Below, in pieces: positions 1,897 to 43,627 of a stretch of 64,000 nt of DNA. A program made the position numbers and the translations under genes. The notes below the pieces were generated by a model that saw only the letters and a program-made list of their open reading frames with translations, ran no database searches and was not told the DNA's origin. Position 1 is the first letter of the stretch. Each line of letters opens with the position of its first letter. This stretch comes from Folioceros fuciformis (lineage: Eukaryota). The DNA lies in contig JBNGIO010005973.1 in assembly GCA_049999805.1 (NCBI GenBank), forward strand, positions 66,877 to 130,876. The letters are read 5' to 3'.

Positions 1897-2350
1897 GTGT
1901 GTGTGGCTCAAGGAGGAGTGTGTGTGGCTCAAGGAGGAGTGNNNNNNNNNNGGAGTGTGTGTGGCTCAAGGAGGAGTGTGTGTGGCTCAAGGAGGAGTCT
2001 GTGTGGCTCAAGGAGGAGTCTGTGTGGCTCAAGGAGGAGTCTGTGTGGCTCAAGAAGGTTTGTGTGTGGCTCAAGAAGGAGTCTATGTGGCTCTAGAAAG
2101 ATTTTGTGTGGCTCAAGGAGGAGTCTATGTGGCTTAAGGAGGATTGTGTGTGGCTCAAGAAGGAGCCTGTGCGGCTCAAGGAGGATTTTGTGTGGCTCAA
2201 GGAGGATTTTGTGTGGCTCAAGGAGGAGTCTGTGTGGCTCAAGAAGGATTCTGTGTGGCTCAAGGAGGAGTNNNNNNNNNNGGAGTCTGTGTGGCTCAAG
2301 AAGGATTCTGTGTGGCTCAAGGAGGAGTGTGTGTGGCTCAAGGAGGAGGA
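1897..2350. repeat. 21-bp minisatellite, consensus GTGTGTGGCTCAAGGAGGAGT, ~20 copies, interrupted by two 10-N gaps
   Basis: The repeat unit is directly visible and gives the periodic ORF translations (ECVWLKE / GSRRSLC). Confidence 0.95.
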
Positions 2351-8886: not shown

Positions 8887-10753
8887 CTCTCTCTCCGCTC
8901 TTCTGAGGTATCCTTGCTTGCTGCTGCAGCGATTTCCAGGCTTGCGTAGAAAGCAAGCCTGCTCATTACCTTTAGGGTCCAGAACAGTCCACCTCGCTGA
9001 CTGGCAGGAAGACCAAAGGCTGAGCTATGCTCAGCAGCCCTGCCTTGCTCTGCCCTGGCCTGTCTCATAATCCCGTGAACATTCTTGGAGGGAAGGACGG
9101 GAAGCATTTCTCGGTGATACATGAGGTGGAGAGTAGTTCCTCTCACCTACTTGATGCTAAACTGGGAATCAACCCAAAGAAGCTGGAAGCTGGTAGATCA
9201 TTAATTCCAGGACATGGGTGTCACCGGCCTGCAGAAGGACGACTGTCCTTCGTGGTTGATTGCTGTTAGCACAGTGAGGACTGCGAAAGGTAAGAAACCT
9301 GACTCCCGATAAGGGCAGCAAACTAGAGTGCCTCGAGTTGATCCTGGGTTCTGACTTTGCCTTGGACCTACCATCAGATGTGACAGATCGACAATGCACA
9401 GTCTGAAAACACAGCTAGCTTCAGTTCCTGTCTGTCATTGGCATTTCGTGTTCTTTGCTTTCCATTTTGTGATGGTTGGTAGGTAGGTAGGCAGGTAGGT
9501 AGGTTTTGTTCAGAAAGTACAGCTTGTGTGTCTTGCCTTCGCTGATCCATCCCTCCATGTGCCTTTCTGATCCTTCACATCTTGCTTCGTGTTTGCTCTT
9601 TCTTGTTCTCCTTTTTCCTCCGTTTTTCCCCTCCTGCTGGACAGTGCTAACGTTGTCAGTGTTGATTGCTGGGTGTAGATCATGGCCTCGTAAGAGACAT
9701 TTTTCTGCTTAAACTATCAATCGAGTCTGGTCGGGTGGGGGTTCCATTCTCTTCTGCTGTGCCAGACTGGCGGCCGTCTGTTCTGCAGCAGCAGAGACTC
9801 ATCGCTGACCTGATCAGCCAGAAGCAAGGCCCTCTGTATGTAAAGCTTCGGATGGGCGTTGCTTCCCTGCTTGTCTCAAGGCTTTTTCTCTTTCCTCCTT
9901 TTTGTTTCGTCCTTTCGTATTAAGTTATCACACCTCTGCCCATCTCACATTGGGCTGTTGTATCTATTCCCTCTGCTCTAGAAGAACGGAAGGGCACATA
10001 ATCCAGGATCGTTCTTCCTTGTCAGATTCGGCTCTTGCGCTTGTGTCTGTCTGTTTTCCTGTTTATGCTCTGTTCCAATGCTTCTTCCTCCTCTTCCTCG
10101 CTGGCGTCCCGCAATTGGGTTCCCTCAACAGCCGCCTGCTGAAACGAGACCAGGCTGCTGGTTCACACGAGGTTACTACCGGTGGGACCGCATTAAGTGG
10201 CTTCATTTGTGCAGTCTTCGGATATGGATATCACCAACCCCGGGTTCGAACCCAGGCCACGCGCCGGAGCCTTCGCAAGGTCCTTCCTGAAAAAATCCTC
10301 CACCTGGTTCTGCCAGCCGGCGAAACCTGCGCATACGGGCACCCTTCTTATAGCTTCAGTTCTCTCATTTGCGTTGCGCGCGTCCTGCTTCTTCTAAGCA
10401 GCTCGATCATTTGGTTCTTTCACTGACTGATCATTCGGTTTCACTGAGTCGCCGTGACGAGACGAGCTTCCCGGGTGGTGAGATTCTACTGGGATTGTTG
10501 ACGCTGGTGCTGTTTTTGTCAGTTTCAAGCAGGTTGTTGTTGACGTGTGAGATGTGTTGGTTGTTCATCCGTGGTTTGGATGGTTTGATGATGTCTTGTG
10601 GGAGATTCTGATGCTGCGGACACGGCGGATGTATGTAAGCTCTCTGTTTGGTCGCATTCATGTTGGAGCTGGAGGCGAGGGTTCGGCTAACTGTTTTGTG
10701 TTGGATGTGTTCAGTGGAGATTTTCTCTGGAAGCTCAGTAGAGGAGCGAAGCC

Positions 10754-12238
10754 ATGGCTGTGGACGCTGCGACCCTGTCCCGTATAGGGCTGGCTGGGCT
10801 GGCCGTGATGGGGCAGAATCTGGCCCTGAATATCGCGGAGAAAGGGTTCCCGATATCTGTGTACAACCGTAGCAGCAGCAAGGTGGATGAGACTGTGGAG
10901 CGGGCGAAGCAGGAGGGAAACCTGCCTCTCCGGGGTTACTACACTCCCAAGGATTTCGTGCTGTCCATTCAAAAGCCTCGGTCTGTGATCATTCTGGTGA
11001 AGGCTGGAGCTCCGGTGGACCAGACGATCGAGACTCTGTCCGAGTTCTTGGAGCCCGGGGACTGCATTGTGGATGGTGGGAATGAGTGGTACGAGAACAC
11101 GGAACGGCGGGCCAAGCAGGTGGCAGAGAAGGGGCTGCTGTACCTGGGGATGGGGGTGTCTGGAGGTGAGGAGGGAGCCCGGAATGGCCCGTCTCTGATG
11201 CCTGGAGGCACTCCTGAGGCTTATCATTACATCGAGGATATTGTGAAGAAGGTGGCTGCCCAGGTTGACGACGGCCCGTGTGTGACATACGTTGGGAAGG
11301 GAGGATCTGGGAATTTTGTGAAGATGGTGCACAATGGGATTGAGTATGGGGACATGCAGCTCATCTCGGAAGCTTATGATGTGCTGAAGTCTGTCGGAGG
11401 GTTGACCAACGCGGAGCTGCACTCGGCCTTCAGCGAGTGGAATAAGGGAGAGTTGGAGAGTTTTTTGGTGGAGATTACTGCGGATATCTTTTCCGTGAAG
11501 GATGATAAGGGAGATGGGGAGCTGGTGGATAAGATTCTTGACAAGACGGGTATGAAGGGGACCGGGAAGTGGACTGTGCAGCAGGCTGCCGAGTTGTCCA
11601 TCGCTGCCCCGACCATTGCTGCCTCCCTGGATTCTCGGTTTCTGAGCGGGTTGAAGGAGGAGAGGGAGGCTGCCGCTGCGATCTTCAAGGAGGTTGGTGT
11701 TGGTGATATTCTGGGTTCCAAGAATGTGGACAAGACGCAGCTGGTCGACGATGTGAGGAAGGCCCTGTACGCCTCCAAGATCTGCAGCTATGCCCAAGGC
11801 ATGAACCTGATTCGTGCCAAGAGCATTGAGCAAGGGTGGGACCTGAACTTGGGCGAGCTAGCTCGTATCTGGAAGGGTGGTTGCATCATCCGTGCCATCT
11901 TCCTCGACAGGATCAAGCAGGCCTACGACCGCAACGCCAAGCTGGCATCCCTTCTGGTGGACCCTGAGTTCGCGAAGGAGATGGTGGACAGACAGGCCGC
12001 ATGGAGACGAGTGGTGAGCTTGGCCATCAGCGTTGGTGTGAGCACTCCAGGTATGAGCGCCAGTCTTGCCTACTTCGACACGTACCGCAGGGCACGGCTC
12101 CCTGCCAACCTCGTGCAGGCCCAGCGAGATTACTTCGGTGCCCACACCTATGAGCGGGTTGATGCCGAAGGTGCGTTCCACACAGAGTGGTTCAAGATTG
12201 CCAAAGGAGCCAAAGTCCCCACCGGTGCCCGTGTATAA
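10754..12238 (+). CDS. PGD: 6-phosphogluconate dehydrogenase (decarboxylating), intronless CDS
   Basis: GLAVMGQNLALN Rossmann motif, VKMVHNGIEYGDMQLI, MKGTGKWT, QAQRDYFGAHTYER. Confidence 0.97.
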   Translation: MAVDAATLSRIGLAGLAVMGQNLALNIAEKGFPISVYNRSSSKVDETVERAKQEGNLPLRGYYTPKDFVLSIQKPRSVIILVKAGAPVDQTIETLSEFLEPGDCIVDGGNEWYENTERRAKQVAEKGLLYLGMGVSGGEEGARNGPSLMPGGTPEAYHYIEDIVKKVAAQVDDGPCVTYVGKGGSGNFVKMVHNGIEYGDMQLISEAYDVLKSVGGLTNAELHSAFSEWNKGELESFLVEITADIFSVKDDKGDGELVDKILDKTGMKGTGKWTVQQAAELSIAAPTIAASLDSRFLSGLKEEREAAAAIFKEVGVGDILGSKNVDKTQLVDDVRKALYASKICSYAQGMNLIRAKSIEQGWDLNLGELARIWKGGCIIRAIFLDRIKQAYDRNAKLASLLVDPEFAKEMVDRQAAWRRVVSLAISVGVSTPGMSASLAYFDTYRRARLPANLVQAQRDYFGAHTYERVDAEGAFHTEWFKIAKGAKVPTGARV

Positions 12239-17465: not shown

Positions 17466-18054
17466 CCCTGCTCGCCGAACTAACCCCTTCTTTCTCCGAA
17501 GGGATTCCTTGCCTTCCAAACCCCAAGTCTACTTCTCTTCTCTAGCACGTCACCCTGGCTCTCTTCACGATCCACCTTCCACAGCCTTTGCTTCTCTCAA
17601 ACCCACACGCCTCCCGGACCCTTGTGGCTCTCCTTTGCGCTACTCAGAAAGCGTGTCCGGCAAGTCCGCTTATATCACCGGAACTTGCTCCCCTCCGAAG
17701 TTGCGCGCAACCTTCCGATATTCCAACACATTCCAGGCTCTTCTTTTCCAAGGGGTACTGCAACTTATATGTACTTATACGCTGGACATTTAAAGATACA
17801 GTAATATTTTTCTAAAAAGGATTAGAAATATTATATTATTATTATTATCTCTAGTTCTAAAAAACAATAAATAATAATTTAACTCACATAGCGAAGTGTA
17901 CCTACTCGAAAGCACCGAATTCAGGACAGAAGTGGTGTATCCTGAGGACCCTAAGNNNNNNNNNNATGTGCATAGGGTGGGAAACTCGAATGTGAACACA
18001 TACCACCCTAGACGGCCTAAGCTTTGGTTACGAACAAAGCCCGGATCTACTTGT

Positions 18055-33385: not shown

Positions 33386-33875
33386 GGCCGATGGTAGACA
33401 ATGCGCTGCTGTTGTTTGGATGGCCTCCCGAAGCTCTCATACTCCAAAAGGTGTCAGAACTCGCACCACCATCAGCTGAACACAAGCTACAAGTAAAACA
33501 GCAAGTAACAACGGCCTCAGCTGAAGAAGCCTTCTCAAGACTCATCTCCATCACAACCAAGCCCACAGCCACCATATAGAGAAAAAAATAATAAAAACCG
33601 CGCTTTCCAGCAAGCGAGAGTTTGCACGGTCCGATTTCACCTGCATGAATTCAAAGACGACCGATCCAAGACAAAGCAGATCTTGCTGCTATCCCTCCTG
33701 CAAAAAAATTCTCGATCAGCGCTGCGGACATCGCCAAACCTCGGCTATGGCACATCTCTTTAAAAGAAACGAAGGCAACGAATACGAGTTTGGGCAAACT
33801 AAAGAATCCACTCGAAAGGGAAAACCTCTACAGTTTCTTATAAGGCGAAGGCCCTCCAAAGAACTTCCTTGATCC

Positions 33876-34732
33876 ATGGGTGACAAAGAGACGGACGCGG
33901 CCTTGATCGAATTCCTGTCTCAGCTGGGCGAGTACACTCCGACGGTGCTCACTTCTCTGTTCCTCCGTGGTGTTGTTTTCTTCAAGGTATCGCTGTTTTC
34001 GCCAGGGAGCTGTCTCGTCTCATCGGTTCTCTCTTCTGTCGGCTTGGGTTTCGCTTTCCAGATCCCTGACGAGCTGGCCGAGCACTACCTGGCCAGGAGC
34101 GGCTTCAACTGTCCCGACATCCGAGTGTATGTTGTGAATTTTCTGGCTCAAGTCTGTTGCGTTGTTGAACGGGGAGGAAGGGCTAGGGTTTTTGGAGCTG
34201 GTTGAGACTAACTGAGCTGCGGACTGGTGTTGCAGAACAAGATTGGTGTCTGTTGCTGCACAGAAATTCATCGGCGAGGTAGCGAGTGATGCCATGCAGT
34301 AAGGGGGTCTTGATGAGGTGGTGAGTTGTGGTTCTCCAGCTCTGGAAGTAGGTCTCATCTGCTGACACTTCATATGCAGGTACTGTAAAATCAGGCAATC
34401 TGGTCCAGGCAAAGACAAGAAAGCTCAACCTGGCAAGGTGTGCATGGCCCCCATGCGATTTCTGGTGACGTTGCATCGCTCTACGTTCCCGTCTACAACG
34501 TGTTTGTCTTTGGATTGTGAGCAGGAAAAACGGCTTGTCCTAACTTCCGAGGATCTTGCAGCAGCCTTGGCAGAGGTAGGCCCTGTACATAATTTCGCTT
34601 CTGTGGGCTGGACATCGGCTTATGTGTTTGGTTGTGGAACAGTATGGAGTCAACTTGAAAAGGAGAGACTCTTTCGCAGACGCACCAGTAACAGCACCAG
34701 GGACGTCCTCCAAGGAAAAGTTTGGAGAGTAG
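33876..34732 (+). CDS. TAF10: TBP-associated factor 10, 6 exons
   Basis: EFLSQLGEYTPT|IPDELAEHYLARSGFNCPDIRV|TRLVSVAAQKFIGEVASDAMQ|YCKIRQ...|EKRLVLTSEDLAAALAE|YGVNLK. Confidence 0.92.
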
Positions 34733-34754
34733 ATGGTTTAGATGGATGAGAAAA

Positions 34755-36307
34755 TTACAGCGAGAAAGGCGGCACCACAAGGTTCTCCTTGTTTTTGTAG
34801 TATTCCTCTCCGCCATGTATAGTGACAGGAGCAGGGTACTTTTGAAGCAAAAGCTCTCGCTGCTCTGGGTCTGTCACAGACAGTAAGTCCTTGCTAACAT
34901 CTCGGATCAGGTCAGCCATCTCCACACTATCCGTCCACCTCTTGGGAATAGCAGCTTCTCCATACAAAGCTCCCATGATATTTCCGACTATAGCCCCTGT
35001 GCTGTCAGAATCGCCACCGTGATTTACAGAGAAACACATTGCATTTTCAACATCTTCCCCGCAGATGAGGGCACAATAAAGAGCTATTCCTAGAGCTTCT
35101 TCACCCACGAAACCTCGTCCCAGCTGCTCGATGTGCCTCAAGGCAAGATCCTGCTTACTAGAGCAAGTGGCCATGTCTTTCCTGAAATGTGCTGCAAGCT
35201 TCTGAGCCTCCTGCACTTGGAACAAAGTCTCGTCATTGTCTGGCTCCTTCTCTAACAATGGCGTGGTTTTGTCTATGCCTTTTTGAAGGGAATCACCTGA
35301 ATGTGACACTCCTTACGTATCAGTAACTGAGACGGCTGGCATCTTGCTACCTTCCAAGTCCAGCAGAATGAACAGCTCTCAAGATTTACCTGACAAAATC
35401 CTGCTCAGCACAGCTGCTTGGTAGCCGGATGAAAGCCAACCAGATGGATGCGTGTGGGTGATCACAGCGGACACGCAGCCTAGCTTGAAAGCGAGCTCAG
35501 CTTGCTCATCAGGAGAAAGGAAGGGGAATGCACTGTGTAAAATAAGCGCGCATGGAGCAACTCGCATTATTCCACCACAGCCTGTGATCGCACGCTAAAC
35601 TTGTTTAGAACCAATTTCTTGGGGGGCCTGAAAAACGCCAGGTGCACGGGAAGTACCTACCTTTGCTGTCATTTATCTTGTTGTCGTAGTTCCCTACTGC
35701 TCCAGACCTAAGACTCATCCGGCATGTCATCCCCGGGCCTCTTCGTCTCCACAGTCCTTGTTGCTTAACTAGCATCCCTTGGTCCTTGATTTGAGCGAAG
35801 AGAGGACTTCGAGATGATTCCCCCTGAGTGGCCAGCCATCTGCACAAGCCAACGGAGTCAAAACTAGGATCAGATATCCAACACCAGAGCAGGAATCCGA
35901 AACGTGGGAGTGTTGTCAGCAGCCACCTTAGATAGGCTTGGTGCAGACCCGGCACAGCATGTTCGGCTTCCATGGTTCTCAGGTCCACATTCCTTGAAAG
36001 GAAAGATAGGACAGTCGACTGAAGCCCTTCGGCGGTAAACAAGGTCATCTGCGTGTCGTCTGTGATACCTTCTCTAACACCTATGTCCCTGACTCCTGCA
36101 GGAAGCCCAAATTCATTGACCGGACACCTGAAATTCAGGATCGCAGCACTGCACCGATGGGAGCGACACCAACTCACCCAACGGACCGTAGTCACGAAAA
36201 ATGACTGGAGCGGACAGGAACTCTACCGCAGCTCCCAGGGCATCACCACAAGCCCCCGCCAACAAGCAGCCCACAAATCGATCCCCCACGGTTAGACTGG
36301 CCGCCAT
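34755..36307 (-). CDS. ADP-ribosylglycohydrolase (DraG/ARH family), 5 exons
   Basis: [85 protein letters not shown]. Four in-phase GT-AG introns. Confidence 0.9.
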
Positions 36308-36648
36308 CGTTTGCGAGCAATTCGTCGGAGCTGCTCCTATAATGATGAATCTTGCTCTTGGAACAAGGTTCATGACCTGGTCCTAAAACTCAATAGTTCA
36401 TGCTGTCACGCGTTTGCTTTAGGAGTAAGGGTCTTAAACGCTACACTTTGACGCGTTCCCGCAGCAGCCCCAAGGCTAGCGGCATATTTTGACAGTTCGA
36501 CAGTAGATATAGCCACGAACAGCCGACCAATAGGCTCACCACCTTCATTAGTGAGAGGTGCTTTATTACCGTTTCTTATGGTGGACCCCAGACACACAAA
36601 TTTGCAGGGTACGAACACCACCGTCCACCAGTGATTGTGGAAAGCAAA

Positions 36649-38009
36649 TCAAGCTTGCTTGAGAGGAATTTCTGCCTTCAAAAGCTTACTCAACTCGTTT
36701 TCCAGAAGTGAAAGAAGCTCCGCCTTGGTGCGTCTGTAAACCCAAGCCTCGTCAGATTCATTCCAGTCAAACCGAGCCGGGCCACTGCGTCATAGAACGG
36801 CGATAGTAATGACCATGGGGACGTTATCTGATTCACACCCTGCACTGTGTACAATGAAGAACTGACATCTGGGCAGATATCATCGGTTTTCCGCAGCCTG
36901 GGAACAGAAGCACTATTCAACACAAGCCTTACCTTACAGGAGATGACAGCCAGATTTGCCTGTTTGGTGTTTGCTTGTTGATGACATATGTTCCCAAGCT
37001 TCCAAGCCGGAGAGTCAGTACTCCGTCCTGTTGCGCTCAGAGCAGCGAGTAGATCAGGATACCAGCGCAGAAAGCAAAGGGCACTGCCATGCCAGGCCAA
37101 CAGTCTGAATTAGAAGTTCAATCTGAGAAATCGGGGACTTACAGAGTAGTCTGTGTCAAAGCCATCAATTGCCAGCTTGTCACCTTGTTCCTGGGAGACA
37201 GCCAGTATCAGAACTCCATGAACGCATGCAAAATTCACTGACAAGCTTAACAGGTTACGCGAAAGGAGAGCTGCTTAACCCTTGCCAACTCGGATACGTC
37301 AGCTGAATTAAGTCAGTCAATCCATACCTCAAACTGTTCTTGAAGATGATTGAGAACTTCGTCAGCACGTTTGTGAAACTCCCTCTCCGATACCAGAGAG
37401 CTGCAACTACCAAAATGGCTGTATCAGCTGAAAAATGTACAGGCAGGGCAAATCCAGAGCATTCATCCTATCGAAGGGGAACTTGAACTCCGAGATCCTA
37501 CTCGTCCACCCAGTCCGAGCTATCTCCACGATGTCAGCACTATGTACACCAGGGGGCCATACGCAGCATAGGCAGCTGGCTGAAACAATGCAAGGACTTG
37601 CTGTAGGTCCAATTGCATTCAAAGCTAGGTCATGCCACTCTCCGCTTTGCCAAGAATGGACCACCACACAGCCCCCCGCAGAGGCAGCAGCAGAAGATGA
37701 TGGAAATAAGGCTTACCTGTAGTCCACAGTCACAGGACCGTCACCCTGATCCCCGACATCAAACGGCGGGCATGAACCGTACGCTCTGTACTCCTTCTCC
37801 CGAGCCCCGGCCACCACCAGCTCAAAGTGGACGAAGCAGCTTCCAACACAGTTCAGCCTCCCCGAGGCACCGGCGAGTGAGGCCAATTCGCGGACACAGG
37901 GAGGAGCCAGCCGAGCATGTCTCCAACAATGCTGTCTGGACGCCGAGCCACGGAAAATCCTTGCCGCAGCTATCCGCGCAAATGGAAGAGCCTTCGGGAG
38001 CCTCCTCAT
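36649..38009 (-). CDS. FH: Frataxin, 5 exons
   Basis: Hand-spliced: presequence, [66 protein letters not shown]...[10 protein letters not shown]. Confidence 0.93.
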
Positions 38010-39054: not shown

Positions 39055-41775
39055 TCATGGTCGACCCTTGCAAGTGCAAGAACCATCGGCAAACCGATGC
39101 ACACGGTAACCGTCCCTTACAACAATGTCTCTCTGTTCCAGCCTTGACATGATCTCCGTTGAACTGTGGCAATCACTGCACATTCGTAGATTCTTCGTTA
39201 CCACCAAAGGTGTCCCACTTGGAGTGTTCAAGAGACCATAGGCTAGGGCTAGTTTCTCAGCATGTCCACACAGCGCGTCTTCCTTTTCCTTCTCACTCAG
39301 TGGCTTCAACACCAAATTTGTGTGAGGTATGTGGCCTCCTTCATGCTTCACACGTGCATTTATGCTCTCTACCTTTAGCGCAATATCATGTTCTGTTCTT
39401 TCCCCCACCACAAACGTATGAACCTGCTGTTTCACCTCAATGGTCGCCACTGCAGGTTTCTTGTTAGCTCCTGCTACCAGCCTCTGTGTTTCAATCCTGT
39501 CTACATCCGTCCACCTACCTGCATCTGCATAAGTATTGGCCATAAGCACGTAAGCAGACGCCCGCTGGGGGTCCAGCCTAACGATGCTTTTGAAACACCA
39601 CAGCGCCCTATCTACATCCCCATGACTTTTGCAGGCATTCAACAAAGATGTCAAGCCCACAAGATTACTTTGACTCTCACATGATAACAGCATGGTCTCA
39701 GCCTCATCTAAATTGCCTACACGCCCAAGAAGATCAACCATACAATTGTAATGGTCAGTAGTAGGTTTTAGGCCATGCTGTTTCGCCATGGAATCGAAGT
39801 ACTTGCAACCCTCATCCACCAGTCCCTCATGACTGCATGCTACTAGAACGCAAGTAAAAGTCGCATCACTAGGCTGAACACCGGCAACTAACATCTCCTC
39901 AAAACAAGCTAGTGCCTTGTGACCTTCATCACAGGCACCGTACCCAGATATCAGGGCAGTCCACGTCACCACATCCTTTGTGGTCAAGCTGTCAAAAACC
40001 CCGCGTGCATCCTCCAGTTTGCCACATTTTGCATACATGTCCACCAGGCAAGAGCCCAACACCACGCAATCCAGCAGTCCACTTTTTACAATCTGTGAGT
40101 GCAGCTGCCTGCCTTTCTGTAAGGCACCAGTGCTTCCACAGTACTTCAGCAGGCAAGCAAACACAAACTCGTCAGCCAAAATGAGGCCCTCCTCCTCCAT
40201 TTGTCCATACAAAACAAGTGCCTCGTGTCCGAGCCCTTGCTGCGCATACCCAGCAATAAGCGCTGTCCATGTCACCACATTTTTTGTGGCCAGGCTGTGA
40301 AAAACCTGGCGCGCATCTTCCATTTCACCACATTTTGCGTACATGTCCACCAGGCAGGTGCCTACCAGTATGTCATTCAGCAGCCCTCTTTCAACAATGA
40401 GTGAGTGCAGCTGTCTGCCCCTCTGTAGGGCACCAGTGCCGGCACACGCCTTCAGAAGGCAAGCGAAAGTGACATGGTTAGCCAAAATGTGGCCCTCCTG
40501 CTCCATTCGCTCATACAGAACAAGTGCCTCCTGTCCAAGGCCCTGCTGGGCATATGCAGCTATGAGGGTAGTCCATGAGACCACATCCTTCGTGCTCATG
40601 CTATCAAAAAGATGGCGTGCCTCTTTCAGTTCACCACATTTTGCATAACCAGATATCAAGGCATTCCATGTCACAACATCCTTCGCAGGCATGTTGTCAA
40701 AAACGTGGCGTGCATCTTTCAGTTCGCCACATTTTGCATACATATCCACCAGGCAGTTGCCAACAAACAGGTTAGTAGGAATGCCACTGCGCAACACATC
40801 ACGGTGCACTTTTCTGCCAGATTCCAAGTCAGCGCCAAATGCACAAGCTTGAAGGGCAGCCACAAAGGCGTGACCATTCGCCTTCACTCCTGACCTACGC
40901 ATCTCATGGTACAATTGTATTGCCTCATCATGTTGCCCATGCTTGGCATACGCAGAGATGATGGAACCCCACGTGATAACATCTGGTTTGCCTACCCTGG
41001 TGAACACATCCATGGCCTCCTGTAGCCTACCTCCACCTGCATACATGCGCAGGAGATGGTTCCCCAAGTATGCATTCGATTCGTACCCAAATTTAACACA
41101 CAGATCATGGACGCGTCGTCCCACAACCAAATCCTTCCTAGCTGTACACAGTTTCAGCACAGAGCCAAACAGAGAGACCGAAATAGCAGAGTCTATGTGC
41201 GCCAGAGATTCAAGGGCTCCAACGGCCTCAGAAAGCTTCCCCTGCTGGCACAACGTGCTCACGGTCACAGCCGTAACCACGTCCACATCCGACGTTCCAC
41301 GCCTCCCAGGTTCAGGCTTACCCGGAGCGCTGGGCTGGGAAGGAGAGGCTCCATGTCCCATCTGCGTATCCAAGGAAACGATCTTCTCATCAACCCAAGC
41401 TGGCTTAAAAGTGTGGTTCAGCCACAGCACCTCCCCGGACCCCTTACGCCGGAAGTCAGGAGAACGGGAGCTCTTCTTATCTCGTCTGTTGTCCCACCAC
41501 AGGGTAGGATCCAGAAAAAACTGTTGCCACAAGTGCTCCTGGTCCTGGCAACGACCGGCGTCGCTGGACAATCCGTCCCCACTCACAAACGTTCTCGGAA
41601 GTGGAAGTGGAAGAGGAGGTGCTGGCCTCCTTACGCTGCAGCACCTGGAGGCTCTGTACGCCAGTGCTTGACTCCCTAAGATGAGGTGAGCGGGAGCTCC
41701 TGGTGGGATTCCTGTACCAACACCAACTGAAACTTGCTGGGTCATCAGCGGCTCCCCCAGCCATACTGTGGCCAT
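39055..41775 (-). CDS. PLS-class PPR protein with E1/E2 and a DYW:KP (GRP-ending) deaminase-like domain; candidate organellar U-to-C RNA editing factor with an N-terminal PDF motif; intronless
   Basis: About 16 P/L/S motifs; KKPAVATIEV in place of the PG box; HAEKLA and CSDCH zinc ligands; C-terminus CTCKGRP. Confidence 0.93.
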   Translation of the reverse strand: MATVWLGEPLMTQQVSVGVGTGIPPGAPAHLILGSQALAYRASRCCSVRRPAPPLPLPLPRTFVSGDGLSSDAGRCQDQEHLWQQFFLDPTLWWDNRRDKKSSRSPDFRRKGSGEVLWLNHTFKPAWVDEKIVSLDTQMGHGASPSQPSAPGKPEPGRRGTSDVDVVTAVTVSTLCQQGKLSEAVGALESLAHIDSAISVSLFGSVLKLCTARKDLVVGRRVHDLCVKFGYESNAYLGNHLLRMYAGGGRLQEAMDVFTRVGKPDVITWGSIISAYAKHGQHDEAIQLYHEMRRSGVKANGHAFVAALQACAFGADLESGRKVHRDVLRSGIPTNLFVGNCLVDMYAKCGELKDARHVFDNMPAKDVVTWNALISGYAKCGELKEARHLFDSMSTKDVVSWTTLIAAYAQQGLGQEALVLYERMEQEGHILANHVTFACLLKACAGTGALQRGRQLHSLIVERGLLNDILVGTCLVDMYAKCGEMEDARQVFHSLATKNVVTWTALIAGYAQQGLGHEALVLYGQMEEEGLILADEFVFACLLKYCGSTGALQKGRQLHSQIVKSGLLDCVVLGSCLVDMYAKCGKLEDARGVFDSLTTKDVVTWTALISGYGACDEGHKALACFEEMLVAGVQPSDATFTCVLVACSHEGLVDEGCKYFDSMAKQHGLKPTTDHYNCMVDLLGRVGNLDEAETMLLSCESQSNLVGLTSLLNACKSHGDVDRALWCFKSIVRLDPQRASAYVLMANTYADAGRWTDVDRIETQRLVAGANKKPAVATIEVKQQVHTFVVGERTEHDIALKVESINARVKHEGGHIPHTNLVLKPLSEKEKEDALCGHAEKLALAYGLLNTPSGTPLVVTKNLRMCSDCHSSTEIMSRLEQRDIVVRDGYRVHRFADGSCTCKGRP

Positions 41776-42170
41776 CGTTCAGCAACCGCTGCCGGAAGAT
41801 AGCTCCAGCAACACACTCTTTAGACGCCCAATTCAGGTACTTGAATAAGACTCTTTGCATACCAGAAAAGGACTCGACACAACTCGATAGCTTATTTGGT
41901 GGTTTAAAGTTGTCTCGATATGAACGTCACCAGGCAAGAGATCTGCGAGCGACGGCTAAATCAGAGACGCTTTTTGAAGTCGGCACGAGAGCGGGGAGAA
42001 GCGCACGGTGCGAGTAATTTGGCTGTGTTTTGGTTAACTGTGGTGTGATTTGTGTCAGTATCCAGCTTGCAACGACGTCGGGCTTCATGGCGGGGGATCC
42101 TCGAACTGACTGCCTTAGACCGTTCACGGGCGTTGGTCCGATTGAACCACCAACGAAGGTGTACGTATTC

Positions 42171-42477: not shown

Positions 42478-43627
42478 GTTCTCAGCGAAGCCGGGCTTCT
42501 TTGTCGTGAGCAGGTGGTGAAGGCGCCAACAGGTCACAAGAACTTGCCGCGTCCTCTGGTTGAGAGCTTCGGCGTTTCGGCTATGTGCATACAGGTTGTC
42601 CGCGGAGGTCTCGTCTTTGTTGACTGCCTGGTGATATACAAAGTCTATCCCCTGTCACCGGGATAGTTAGACGTTCTCCTCTTGATTTTATGCTGTTGTA
42701 CATAGCCTATCCTGTGCGACAGTCGTCCTTCATTTCAAACCCGGCTTCTCTTCTGCCGGATCCAGGTTAAGGAAACAGTTCAATTCACTACGTAACCTTC
42801 TTGCATGAAGTCGAATTCCGACGTTCAACGCTGTTGCACATCCTACAGGAGGCACACAAGCGTCCCAGGATCAGATGCTTTAATTCGACTTGCATCACTC
42901 TCTGTAAACGTGAAGCTGCAGGGCCGCCTGTCCTAAGTATGTCCTGCTGTGACTGTCGACCTATCGTGGCATTCCACCTCAGTTCTCATGGAAGCAGGGC
43001 TTTATCCTTATGAGCAGATGGTGAAGACACCGACAGGTCACAAGACCTTGCCGCGTCTTCTGGTTGAGAGCTTCGGCGTTTCGGCTATGTGCATACACAC
43101 ACGTTGTCCGCGGAGATCTTGTCTTGTCTTGTTGATTCCATGGTAATGTACATGGTCTATTCCGTGCCACCGGGATATGTACATAGGTCTGTTCTCCTCT
43201 TGATTTTATACTGTTGTACATAGCCTATCCCGTGTGATTGTCGAACTTCATTTCAAACCTGGCTTCTGNNNNNNNNNNGGCCCAGATTAAGGAAACAGGT
43301 CAATTCACTACGTAACCTTCTTGCATGAAGTCGAATTCCGACGTTCAACGCTGTCGCGCTTGCACATCCTATGGGAGGCACACAAGTGTCCCAGAATCAG
43401 GTGCAACCATGCTTGAATTCGACTTGCATCATCACTCTCTGTGCATGTAAAGCTGCAGGGCCGCCTGTCCTATGCCCTGCTCTGAATGTCCTCCTAAGGC
43501 CCGCCTGTCCTATATCCTGCTGTGAATGTCGTCCTATCATGGCATTCCACCTCACAACATTCTTCAGAGCCAGGGCGTCAAACACACGTTCAGCGTCCTC
43601 GAGGCTGCCACGCTTAAGGCTTGGCAT
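42478..43627 (-). pseudogene. ~500-bp tandem duplication with a degenerate PPR remnant
   Basis: 42480-42980 is duplicated at ~42985-43550. The minus-strand remnant KRGSLEDAERVFDALALKNVVRWNAMIGRHSQQDIGQ is an S1-P1 PPR junction. Confidence 0.7.

What the first reader, a model, noticed from the sequence alone, without database searches (positions are those of the whole stretch)
34755..36307. Bacterial-looking ADP-ribosylglycohydrolase with four spliceosomal introns: HGT candidate
Seen: an intact ARH/DraG-fold gene with metal-binding motifs (GDALG, TDDT, DSDS) and four GT-AG introns, embedded between TAF10 and frataxin, so it is not contamination. Recalled knowledge: this family is generally considered absent from Arabidopsis-like angiosperms. 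The motif set [42 protein letters not shown] and [12 protein letters not shown] resembles bacterial members more than animal ARH1/ARH3. Inference: a horizontally acquired, domesticated eraser of ADP-ribosylation that might counter microbial ADP-ribosylating effectors or act in symbiont interaction.
Basis: partly seen in the sequence, partly recalled or inferred. Interest (0 to 1): 0.75.

Follow-up and report, generated by a model that had tools for sequence, protein, structure and literature searches.

The report
Old plant ADP-ribose hydrolase gene
This is an intact, spliced plant gene for an enzyme that removes ADP-ribose tags; it is bacterial in type, but it has been inherited since the algal relatives of land plants and was not picked up recently.

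Summary
On the minus strand at 34755-36307 lies an intact 403-aa ADP-ribosylglycohydrolase (Pfam PF03747) gene with five exons and four GT-AG introns of 82, 87, 79 and 93 nt. It sits between TAF10 and frataxin. A public-run contig with no mismatches joins across all four introns exactly as modelled. The di-metal motifs are present, and the protein keeps 19 of 19 invariant and 65 of 66 near-invariant columns of the subfamily alignment.

The protein is of bacterial type: 44-45% identical to bacterial ARHs, against about 20% for solved ARH3, ARH1 and DraG. It is not a lineage-specific acquisition. Orthologues in Klebsormidium, Chara, Mesotaenium, liverworts (two paralogues) and the lycophyte Diphasiastrum form one group with it (support 100/100), in an order compatible with the species tree. 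What remains open is a much older bacterium-to-streptophyte transfer; I put it at about 0.55-0.6. The donor is unresolved and the tree has no outgroup. No seed-plant, fern, moss or chlorophyte orthologue was listed.

The function is inferred: metal-dependent release of ADP-ribose from a substrate not yet identified. Interest is modest.

The parts
36178..36307 (-). Exon 1 (130 nt). ATG at 36307; holds the GDALG motif (D22) and VEF (E29).
   Evidence: PF03747 profile positions 1-32 match, 30.2 bits. The X1 contig covers it.
36096..36177 (-). Intron 1, 82 nt, GTGAGT..CAG, phase 1.
   Evidence: Only this acceptor keeps the frame. The X1 contig skips 82 nt here, CT..AC on the + strand.
35927..36095 (-). 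Exon 2 (169 nt). Holds ITDDTQM (T55, D56, D57, T58).
   Evidence: X1 contig piece 35927-36094.
35840..35926 (-). Intron 2, 87 nt, GT..AG, phase 2. It splits AYLR|WLATQ.
   Evidence: The joint 35839>35927 is seen in X1, X2 and X3.
35661..35839 (-). Exon 3 (179 nt). Holds RRGPGMTC and NDSKG.
35582..35660 (-). Intron 3, 79 nt, GTAGGT..CAG, phase 1. It splits SKG|CGG.
   Evidence: A 79-nt skip is seen in X1, X2 and X3.
35390..35581 (-). Exon 4 (192 nt). Holds CGGIMRVAP and THTHPSGW.
   Evidence: PF03747 profile positions 121-179 match, 41.9 bits.
35297..35389 (-). Intron 4, 93 nt, GTAAAT..CAG, phase 1.
   Evidence: X1 skips 93 nt here. X2 and X3 skip 110 nt with 17 unlike letters in between, which is net 93.
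34755..35296 (-). Exon 5 (542 nt including the stop at 34757-34755). Holds [29 protein letters not shown] (D319, D321, S322, T323) and a land-plant C-terminal extension.
   Evidence: PF03747 profile positions 177-287 match, 85.2 bits, E 8.4e-24.
36371..36373 (-). Upstream in-frame ATG, 22 codons before the ATG supported by homology. It is a possible alternative start and is unresolved.
   Evidence: The ORF 36113-36382 reads ..[28 protein letters not shown]; sequence. The N-termini of the homologues fit 36307.
33873..34732 (+). Neighbour TAF10 (exon pieces). It is convergent with the ARH gene, and its stop at 34730-34732 lies 22 nt from the ARH stop.
   Evidence: PF03540 matches three pieces. 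The X1 contig runs on into a spliced TAF10 exon (table 7).
36646..37109 (-). Neighbour frataxin (3' part), upstream of the ARH gene on the same strand.
   Evidence: PF01491 matches 36649-36789, E 2.4e-8.

Best explanation
This is the window organism's copy of an old streptophyte nuclear gene for an ADP-ribosylglycohydrolase-fold (ARH/DraG, PF03747) enzyme.

Shown: the gene is intact, spliced at four GT-AG introns and under purifying selection. It keeps the family's di-metal site residues: D22, E29, T55-D56-D57, and D319-x-D321-S322-T323. It is orthologous to genes of Klebsormidium, Chara, Mesotaenium, liverworts and a lycophyte. The subfamily's other members in these searches are bacterial.

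Inferred: the enzyme binds two Mg2+ or Mn2+ ions and hydrolyses the C1'' glycosidic bond that links ADP-ribose to an acceptor, releasing free ADP-ribose. The acceptor could be a protein side chain or an ADP-ribose-derived nucleotide. There is no N-terminal extension before the domain, so a cytosolic or nuclear location is the simplest guess.

Origin, also inferred: most likely a single bacterium-to-streptophyte transfer before Klebsormidiophyceae diverged (about 0.55-0.6). Vertical descent, intron gain, a duplication within land plants and loss in several lineages including seed plants would have followed. It is not a recent or bryophyte-specific acquisition.

The confidence given (0.75) is for the core reading: an intact ARH-family gene inherited vertically since at least the Klebsormidium split.
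For: Gene model and splicing.

Family: PF03747 matches all 4 exon pieces. The spliced product scores 669.8 bits over positions 4-407 of a profile built from 9 other plant proteins.

Fold: an AlphaFold model of the closest relative P0001 (72% identical) has pLDDT 94.3. It matches MJ1187, ARH3, DraG and Tri1 structures with probability 1.00.

Active site: 19 of 19 invariant and 65 of 66 near-invariant columns of a 40-sequence plant, algal and bacterial alignment are kept. The DraG alignment puts the VEF glutamate on DraG residue 28, and aligns TDDT and GGDxDxTG.

Selection: 23 of the 30 listed X2 differences inside the exon-5 CDS fall on codon position 3. This is my hand count, table 3, where 40 of 105 rows are shown.

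Orthology: with the land-plant profile, Mesotaenium (E 2.4e-144) and Klebsormidium (1.8e-130) rank above every bacterial hit. With the algal profile the first 18 rows are streptophyte, eukprot or unnamed rows that fall in the streptophyte group. Scores then step from 425 to 388 bits at the first bacterial fusion protein.

Trees: the 17 streptophyte rows lie on one side of a branch in FastTree (0.988; 393 domains, which lacked P0373, so 16 of the 17 rows, counting Chara). The same holds in the quick LG+C20 tree (SH-aLRT 99) and the careful LG+G4 tree (100/100). Rooted on bacteria, the Klebsormidium group splits first; the order of Chara, the Mesotaenium pair and the land plants is weakly supported (46-83). 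Land plants as one clade: p-AU 0.527, and the constrained tree is 3.28 lnL units better.

Bacterial affinity: 570 of 620 pattern matches in GTDB species genomes encode relatives, spread over many phyla. The nearest named ESM-Atlas clusters are 93-100% bacterial. The streptophyte stem (0.29-0.32) is shorter than the median terminal branch (0.57-0.61).
Against: No activity, substrate or location was measured.

No solved or characterised enzyme is close. The best PDB profile hit is DraG at E 1.7e-20. The NCBIfam DraG and Tri1 equivalog scores (79 and 58 bits) are far below their cut-offs of 337 and 490.

For the ancient-transfer part: the tree has no outgroup and no ARH from any non-streptophyte eukaryote. 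The sister of the streptophyte group is unresolved (open forks), and the ARH-phosphatase clade seen as next sister in FastTree is not recovered with support. Each search lists only its 120 best rows and pre-selects by shared words. The window's own protein is absent from that database, so taxon absences are weak evidence.

The ultrafast bootstrap had not converged (correlation 0.983), and the LG+C20 careful search never finished.

Pairwise identity of the window protein to Klebsormidium (44.8%) is no higher than to bacterial sequences (44-45%). The clade therefore rests on the tree and on shared insertions.

Bacterial gene neighbourhoods show no conserved partner in 28 loci.
Confidence: 0.75

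Rival explanations
1. Vertical inheritance with no transfer at all. The subfamily was already present in an early eukaryote or in the plastid-bearing ancestor. It has been lost from almost all eukaryotes except streptophytes, and it looks bacterial only because it evolves slowly.
For: The ARH family as a whole occurs in all three domains, and most eukaryotic ARHs are described as ARH3-like (Perina et al. 2014, PMC4245714, passages read). My trees are unrooted and include no other eukaryotic ARH. The donor clade is unresolved.
Against: Across three searches of 120 rows each, the only rows carrying a eukaryote name or a eukprot source are those of the streptophyte group. The streptophyte stem is short compared with the bacterial branches. 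The nearest Atlas clusters are bacterial. Many independent losses would be required.
Confidence: 0.3
2. One reading: a recent horizontal acquisition by this bryophyte lineage from bacteria, later given introns.
For: Bacterial-type motifs and 44-45% identity to bacterial proteins. No seed-plant homologue is listed.
Against: Orthologues in three classes of streptophyte algae, in liverworts and in a lycophyte group with it at 100/100, with the algae outside the land plants. CDS GC (0.514) equals window GC (0.509). Two related organisms carry the same gene with the same four introns.
Confidence: 0.03
3. A bacterial contaminant or an assembly artefact.
For: None beyond the bacterial-type sequence.
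Against: Four spliceosomal introns confirmed by contigs that join across them. TAF10 lies 22 nt beyond the stop, and frataxin lies 339 nt upstream. Plant genes fill the whole window.
Confidence: 0.01
4. A decaying or non-catalytic relic: a pseudogene or pseudoenzyme kept for binding only.
For: No assay was done. The family does include inactive members such as animal ARH2 (recalled, not tested here).
Against: The frame is open and the spliced form is present. The protein keeps 84 of 85 conserved columns, including all presumed metal ligands. Substitutions between congeners are biased to third codon positions.
Confidence: 0.05

Closest known systems
Streptophyte orthologues, unstudied: Marchantia polymorpha Mp3g13360 and Mp6g06810, Riccia fluitans R1flu_007020 and R1flu_002437, Calypogeia fissa, Diphasiastrum complanatum O6H91_14G026000, Mesotaenium endlicherianum ME000457S07516, Klebsormidium nitens KFL_001590180, Chara braunii CBR_g46217
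   Same: They share one clade with the window protein (100/100), with 41-63% identity to the named members compared. Length, motifs and shared insertions agree. The land-plant members share a C-terminal KYPP..GEEYYKN extension.
   Different: The window copy is a further species' orthologue. Its nearest relative is an unnamed eukprot transcript, P0001 (72%). Liverworts carry a second paralogue; whether this genome does could not be checked because no genome is held. UniRef's automatic name for these proteins, 'ADP-ribosylhydrolase ARH3', is not borne out by the comparisons below.
Bacterial 'ADP-ribosylglycohydrolase family protein' subfamily of about 350 aa (Acidobacteriota, Actinomycetota including Streptomyces, Bacteroidota, Myxococcota, Bacillota and others). 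It includes fusions to PTP-like phosphatase domains (PF22784/PF22785) and tandem ARH proteins.
   Same: 35-45% identity over the whole domain for the GTDB loci and 38-45% for the four bacterial proteins aligned. The same conserved motifs are present: RRxPGxTC, SKGCGGxMRxAP, THxHPxG, GWVGEEAL and NHxGDSDSTG.
   Different: The plant and algal proteins are single-domain. They carry insertions near residues 75-88 and 262-272 and a C-terminal tail that the four bacterial sequences aligned lack. By my count, 29 of the 120 rows are phosphatase fusions. None of the bacterial members found is characterised.
DraG (dinitrogenase reductase-activating glycohydrolase; PDB 3g9d, 2woc)
   Same: It has the same fold and metal motifs, and it is the best PDB sequence hit (E 1.7e-20). 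Target-normalised TM-score is 0.76-0.77.
   Different: About 21% identity. The TIGR02662 score is 79 bits against a cut-off of 337. DraG is about 100 residues shorter. DraG acts on Arg-ADP-ribose on nitrogenase Fe protein (established knowledge), a target that plants lack.
Animal ARH3 (ADPRS/ADPRHL2; PDB 2foz, 6d36, 7akr)
   Same: It has the same fold (probability 1.00, TM-score 0.56-0.73). By recalled ARH3 numbering, E41, T76-D77-D78 and D314-x-D316-T317 correspond to E29, T55-D56-D57 and D319-x-D321-S322 here.
   Different: 20-22% identity and profile E 5e-14, far weaker than the bacterial hits at about E-110. It is not an ARH3 orthologue. ARH3's serine-ADP-ribose and poly(ADP-ribose) specificity cannot be carried over.
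Tri1 (Serratia ADP-ribosylarginine hydrolase immunity protein; PDB 6dre)
   Same: The ARH fold and the C-terminal metal motif.
   Different: The NF041672 score is 58 bits against a cut-off of 490, with about 20% identity.

Membership tests
ADP-ribosylglycohydrolase superfamily (Pfam PF03747, ARH/DraG fold) | A match to the family profile above the curated cut-off. | tested here: met
   3 of the 4 exon pieces exceed 26.2 bits on their own (85.2, 41.9, 30.2). The fourth scores 20.3 bits. Together they cover profile positions 1-287.
ADP-ribosylglycohydrolase superfamily (Pfam PF03747, ARH/DraG fold) | The all-helical ARH fold. | tested here: met
   Tested by proxy. The model of P0001 (72% identical to the window protein) has pLDDT 94.3. 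It matches MJ1187, ARH3, DraG and Tri1 with probability 1.00. The window's spliced protein itself was not folded.
ADP-ribosylglycohydrolase superfamily (Pfam PF03747, ARH/DraG fold) | Acidic and hydroxyl ligands of the binuclear Mg/Mn site: the glutamate after GDxxG, TDD, and DxD(S/T). | tested here: met
   E29, T55-D56-D57, D319, D321 and S322/T323 are present. They align to the DraG motifs. The ligand roles are recalled from ARH3 and DraG structures.
ADP-ribosylglycohydrolase superfamily (Pfam PF03747, ARH/DraG fold) | Hydrolysis of an ADP-ribosyl bond. | not testable with these tools
   It needs an enzyme assay.
ARH3 (ADPRS) orthologue group | Closest relatives are ARH3 proteins, or the protein groups with them. 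| tested here: not met
   ARH3 chains match at E 5e-14 and 20-22% identity. Bacterial subfamily members match at about E-110 and 44-45% identity. No ARH3 sequence could be placed in the tree.
DraG equivalog (NCBIfam TIGR02662) | A score above the curated cut-off of 337 bits. | tested here: not met
   68-82 bits for the five full-length streptophyte orthologues and 47.9 bits for the window's exon 5.
Tri1 equivalog (NCBIfam NF041672) | A score above the curated cut-off of 490 bits. | tested here: not met
   49-68 bits for the five full-length streptophyte orthologues and 36.6 bits for the window's exon 5.
Horizontally acquired gene (bacteria to plant) | The recipient clade is nested with support inside a donor clade in a rooted tree. 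| tested here: inconclusive
   The streptophytes form one group among bacterial sequences of many phyla and have a short stem. However, the forks around it are open and there is no outgroup.
Horizontally acquired gene (bacteria to plant) | Absence from the recipient's wider relatives (other eukaryotes, chlorophytes). | tested here: inconclusive
   No non-streptophyte eukaryote appears among the 120 rows of each of three searches. The lists are capped and pre-filtered by shared words.
Horizontally acquired gene (bacteria to plant) | Genuine integration in the host genome, not contamination. | tested here: met
   Introns, spliced contigs and flanking TAF10 and frataxin genes.
   Orthologues are present in Klebsormidium, Chara, Mesotaenium, liverworts and a lycophyte.

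The most novel reading that the evidence does not exclude
Non-seed streptophytes keep a bacterial-type ARH that works as a dedicated eraser in NAD-derived immune chemistry. It would hydrolyse ribose-ribose-linked or otherwise C1''-linked ADP-ribose nucleotides made by TIR-domain enzymes, or arginine-ADP-ribose placed by microbial ADP-ribosyltransferases. Its loss in seed plants would have coincided with a rewiring of that signalling. The bacterial relatives' fusions to 'Swiss-army-knife' phosphatase, macro and NADAR domains and one locus flanked by TNT NAD-glycohydrolase toxin genes hint at such conflict chemistry. Nothing here tests it in plants.
Probability: 0.1. Interest if true: 0.7.

Novelty: new member of a known kind. 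Interest (0 to 1): 0.3.

Why it matters
Work on plant ADP-ribosylation rests on Arabidopsis, which has PARG and macrodomain erasers but no ARH-type hydrolase (Perina et al. 2014, Table 2). This gene shows that streptophyte algae, liverworts, a lycophyte and the window's plant retain a third, bacterial-type eraser class. In this plant it is spliced and under constraint.

It offers a tractable candidate, for example through the two Marchantia orthologues, for asking what ADP-ribose marks or nucleotides non-seed plants remove. It is also one more case for the debate on ancient bacterial gene input at the base of the streptophytes.

It is not evidence of recent gene transfer. Automatic databases already list the orthologues, under a name ('ARH3') that appears to be wrong. 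My paper searches of the held library found nothing on this plant ARH.

Tried and rejected
- The first splice model, with the intron-1 acceptor at 36128, was out of frame and was replaced.
- The window's own genome is not held, so paralogues in this genome could not be sought.
- Intron-position conservation was tried through two metagenome scans. The scan with P0131 found no relative. The scan with the Klebsormidium-group alignment returned 80 loci, all at 47% identity or less and of bacterial type. The test could not be made. The only hint is that three Klebsormidium-like gene calls lose the conserved N-terminus exactly where intron 1 lies here.
- The look-up of sequencing runs listed no RNA holder; the kind of X1-X8 is a guess.
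- The careful LG+C20 tree did not finish after 1161 s. Two script calls gave no answer. The LG+G4 careful tree was used instead.
- Bacterial neighbourhoods: 107 flanking ORFs of 28 loci gave no recurrent partner. Single cases were a second ARH (L002), a PTP-like phosphatase (L013), a Nudix-NrtR regulator (L007), TNT-domain genes with an Imm35-ARH fusion (L018), and WYL regulators (L004, L020).
- Literature: six searches for ARH terms with plant terms either found nothing or listed nothing relevant. One search was poorly framed. Ma et al. 2022 (Mol Plant), the main catalogue of plant HGT families, is not held, so I cannot say whether it lists this family.
- Supplements: those held for PMC12513842 (1 file), PMC11906373 (3 files searched, file 2 unreadable) and PMC7027989 (2 files, one cut when stored) have no ARH entry. 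The large HGT tables of PMC12513842 were not among the held files.
- Earlier-findings look-ups returned nothing.
- The Atlas search by structure was not available for this protein.
Full report
**1. What is there**

The finding's coordinates are exactly the coding span of a minus-strand gene, from the ATG at 36307 to the last stop base at 34755.
- My first splice model used the nearest AG for intron 1 and went out of frame.
- With the acceptor at 36096 the five exons (130, 169, 179, 192 and 542 nt) give an open 1212-nt CDS of 403 codons.
- The introns are 82, 87, 79 and 93 nt, all GT..AG, in phases 1, 2, 1 and 1.
- CDS GC (0.514) equals window GC (0.509).
- An in-frame ATG lies 22 codons upstream at 36373. 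The N-termini of homologues favour 36307, but the true start is not settled.

**2. Independent support for the model**

Of eight public runs listed for this stretch, X1 holds 0.72 of its sampled words. No listed run is on record as RNA; their kind is a guess.
- Laid on the stretch, X1 gives one 4751-nt contig with 0 mismatches. It skips exactly 35297-35389, 35582-35660, 35840-35926 and 36096-36177.
- X2 and X3 come from two other organisms and are about 92-93% identical, by my arithmetic on table 8. They show the same four skips.
- A sequence lacking all four introns is what an assembled transcript gives. The same contig also runs into a spliced TAF10 exon and about 2 kb past 36450, so it merges neighbouring transcripts and says nothing about transcript ends.
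- Table 3 shows 40 of 105 differences. Of these, 30 lie in the exon-5 CDS for X2, and 23 of the 30 fall on third codon positions (hand count). This is the signature of purifying selection.

**3. Family and active site**

- Pfam PF03747 matches all four exon-frame pieces.
- The spliced protein scores 669.8 bits across a profile of nine other plant proteins.
- It keeps 19 of 19 invariant and 65 of 66 near-invariant columns of a 40-sequence plant, algal and bacterial alignment. These include D22, E29, T55-D56-D57-T58 and D319-S-D321-S322-T323.
- The profile alignment to Azospirillum DraG lays these motifs on the DraG motifs. Their role as ligands of two Mg/Mn ions is recalled from ARH3 and DraG structures.
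- I could not submit the spliced protein to the folding tool. I therefore folded P0001, its closest relative at 72% identity, with that alignment: pLDDT 94.3.
- Foldseek finds the ARH fold with probability 1.00 in MJ1187, ARH3, DraG, Tri1 and a Chlamydomonas ARH-like chain. All are at only 20-22% identity, and none stands out.
- NCBIfam gives only sub-threshold DraG and Tri1 hits.
- The protein is therefore a clear member of the superfamily, in a subfamily with no solved or characterised member.

**4. Context**

- TAF10 (PF03540) lies convergent to the ARH gene, and the two stop codons are 22 nt apart.
- Frataxin (PF01491) lies 339 nt upstream on the same strand.
- The window also holds a subtilase, 6PGD, MOT1, MBF1, NFU, a NUP50/RanBP1 protein and an intronless 907-aa DYW-type PPR.
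- This is compact land-plant nuclear DNA. Contamination is excluded.

**5. Relatives**

- With exon 5 as query, the top ten rows were an unnamed eukprot transcript (68%), Riccia, Marchantia (Mp3g13360 and Mp6g06810), Calypogeia, an unnamed row and the lycophyte Diphasiastrum. Bacterial and metagenomic proteins followed.
- With a profile of nine land-plant proteins, Mesotaenium endlicherianum (E 2.4e-144) and Klebsormidium nitens (1.8e-130) ranked directly after the land plants and above all bacterial rows.
- With a profile of the algal members, Chara braunii CBR_g46217 and further Klebsormidium-like and Mesotaenium-like rows appeared. The first 18 rows all belong to the streptophyte group, and scores then step from 425 to 388 bits at the first bacterial protein.
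- No moss, fern, seed plant, chlorophyte or other eukaryote is named in any of the three lists of 120. These lists are capped and pre-filtered by shared words, and they lack the window's own protein. Absence is therefore suggestive for well-represented taxa such as Arabidopsis, rice, Physcomitrium and Selaginella, and weak for the rest.
- The exhaustive representative search found 14,455 proteins at E <= 0.001. It adds no further single-domain hit between the streptophyte scores and the bacterial bulk.
- In GTDB species genomes, 570 of 620 pattern matches encode relatives at 35-45% identity across many phyla.
- The nearest named ESM-Atlas clusters are 93-100% bacterial.

**6. Trees**

From 394 full-length domains I dropped P0010, a mis-spliced isoform of P0009. 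FastTree on the remaining 393 put the 12 named streptophyte rows in a 15-tip group with P0131, P0139 and P0232. Chara was its sister behind a branch of 0.71 with support 0.988.

For likelihood trees I thinned the bacterial rows to below 52% mutual identity, kept six forced members of the FastTree sister clade, and added P0373. This gave 82 rows and 367 columns.
- The 17 streptophyte rows are one side of a branch in the quick LG+C20+F+G4 tree (SH-aLRT 99), the quick LG+G4 tree (99) and the careful LG+G4 tree (UFBoot/SH-aLRT 100/100; 100% of 200 bootstrap trees). The bootstrap had not fully converged (correlation 0.983).
- Rooted on bacteria, the Klebsormidium group splits first, then Chara (46/69). 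Next comes a weakly resolved trio: liverwort paralogue B, Mesotaenium with P0232, and a 100/99 group. In that group Diphasiastrum is sister to (window + P0001, 99/96) plus liverwort paralogue A (96/83).
- Forcing all ten land-plant rows into one clade gave a tree 3.28 lnL units better than the free search, with p-AU 0.527.
- The gene tree is thus compatible with the species tree plus one duplication within land plants.
- The careful LG+C20 search did not finish.

**7. What this does to the HGT idea**

It is met for streptophyte algae, so a recent or bryophyte-specific transfer is out.

The bacterial character is nevertheless real:
- the window protein is as similar to bacterial proteins (44-45%) as to Klebsormidium (44.8%);
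- the streptophyte stem (0.29-0.32) is shorter than the median terminal branch (0.57-0.61);
- no other eukaryote surfaced.

That pattern favours a single old transfer into an early streptophyte, before Klebsormidiophyceae diverged, over retention from a much older ancestor with many losses. But the trees are unrooted and contain no other eukaryotic ARH, and the forks around the streptophyte branch are open. The ARH-phosphatase clade (Smithellaceae, Syntrophales and Deltaproteobacteria MAGs) that FastTree placed next is not supported by IQ-TREE. I put the ancient transfer at about 0.55-0.6 and pure vertical descent at about 0.3.

**8. Mechanism**

The intact metal site, the fold and the selective constraint are shown. 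The chemistry is inferred from the family: metal-assisted hydrolysis of the C1'' glycosidic bond of an ADP-ribosyl conjugate, releasing ADP-ribose.

The substrate is unknown.
- The bacterial relatives give only loose hints. By my count, 29 of the 120 rows are fused to PTP-like phosphatase domains named after polymorphic-toxin 'Swiss army knife' proteins.
- Others are tandem ARHs or carry NADAR and macro domains.
- One Amycolatopsis locus sits among TNT-domain genes and an Imm35-ARH fusion.
- Across 28 loci there is no recurrent neighbour.

A role in reversing ADP-ribosylation or degrading NAD-derived nucleotides is therefore the best guess. Any link to effectors or symbionts is speculation.

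**9. Literature and novelty**

- Perina et al. 2014 (PMC4245714; passages and Table 2 read) list no ARH3 for Arabidopsis. They state that ARHs occur in all three domains.
- Six searches pairing ARH terms with plant terms either found no paper or listed none that was relevant.
- Ma et al. 2022 is not held, and the held supplements of three genome papers have no entry. I cannot exclude that an HGT catalogue already lists this family.
- The orthologues are in public databases as hypothetical proteins or under the automatic name 'ARH3', which the comparisons here do not support.

**10. Verdict**

It is an ordinary though little-noticed gene: a new member of a known kind. The recent-HGT reading is refuted, and an ancient transfer is plausible but unproven. 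Interest is 0.3.

Noticed in passing
window 34730-34757: The TAF10 (+) and ARH (-) stop codons are only 22 nt apart and convergent, so their 3' UTRs must overlap antisense. One assembled contig of run X1 merges both genes and continues towards frataxin.
   Followed up: partly
window 36371-36373: An in-frame ATG lies 22 codons upstream of the start supported by homology, with no stop between them. If it is used, it would add a 22-residue N-terminal extension.
   Followed up: partly
window 39058-41778 (-): An intronless 907-aa open frame encodes a PPR protein with E motif and DYW deaminase domain, i.e. an organellar RNA-editing factor type.
   Followed up: no
window 10742-12235 (+): A 498-aa 6-phosphogluconate dehydrogenase lies in a single uninterrupted frame. 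This is unlike most neighbours, which are split by short introns.
   Followed up: no
window 1942-1951, 2272-2281, 2856-2955, 17956-17965, 43269-43278: Runs of N (assembly gaps) in the window. None is near the gene.
   Followed up: no
proteins P0131, P0139, P0373 (metagenome gene calls) and P0246 (Chara braunii CBR_g46217): Three Klebsormidium-like gene calls replace the conserved GDALG..VEF N-terminus with unrelated residues, exactly where intron 1 lies in the window gene. The Chara model starts only at about residue 65. These are probably mis-called first exons, and they hint at a conserved intron position.
   Followed up: partly
L018:132-5993 (Amycolatopsis rhabdoformis): The bacterial ARH relative is flanked by two genes with TNT (NAD-glycohydrolase toxin) domains and preceded by an Imm35-ARH fusion. 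This is a polymorphic toxin/immunity setting.
   Followed up: no
one search list; for example P0125-P0130 and P0133: A large bacterial clade fuses this ARH subfamily to an N-terminal PTP-like phosphatase (PF22784/PF22785/PF00782). Others are tandem ARH proteins of 715-751 aa or multi-ARH proteins of 1000-1900 aa.
   Followed up: partly
UniRef names: The streptophyte orthologues carry the automatic name 'ADP-ribosylhydrolase ARH3'. Sequence and fold comparisons place them far from ARH3 and close to an uncharacterised bacterial subfamily.
   Followed up: yes
PDB 8xks chain Q: A Chlamydomonas ARH-like subunit of the chloroplast Orf2971-FtsHi import motor shares the fold, but it is only a distant relative (E 0.0023 to exon 5). 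It is not an orthologue of this gene.
   Followed up: no
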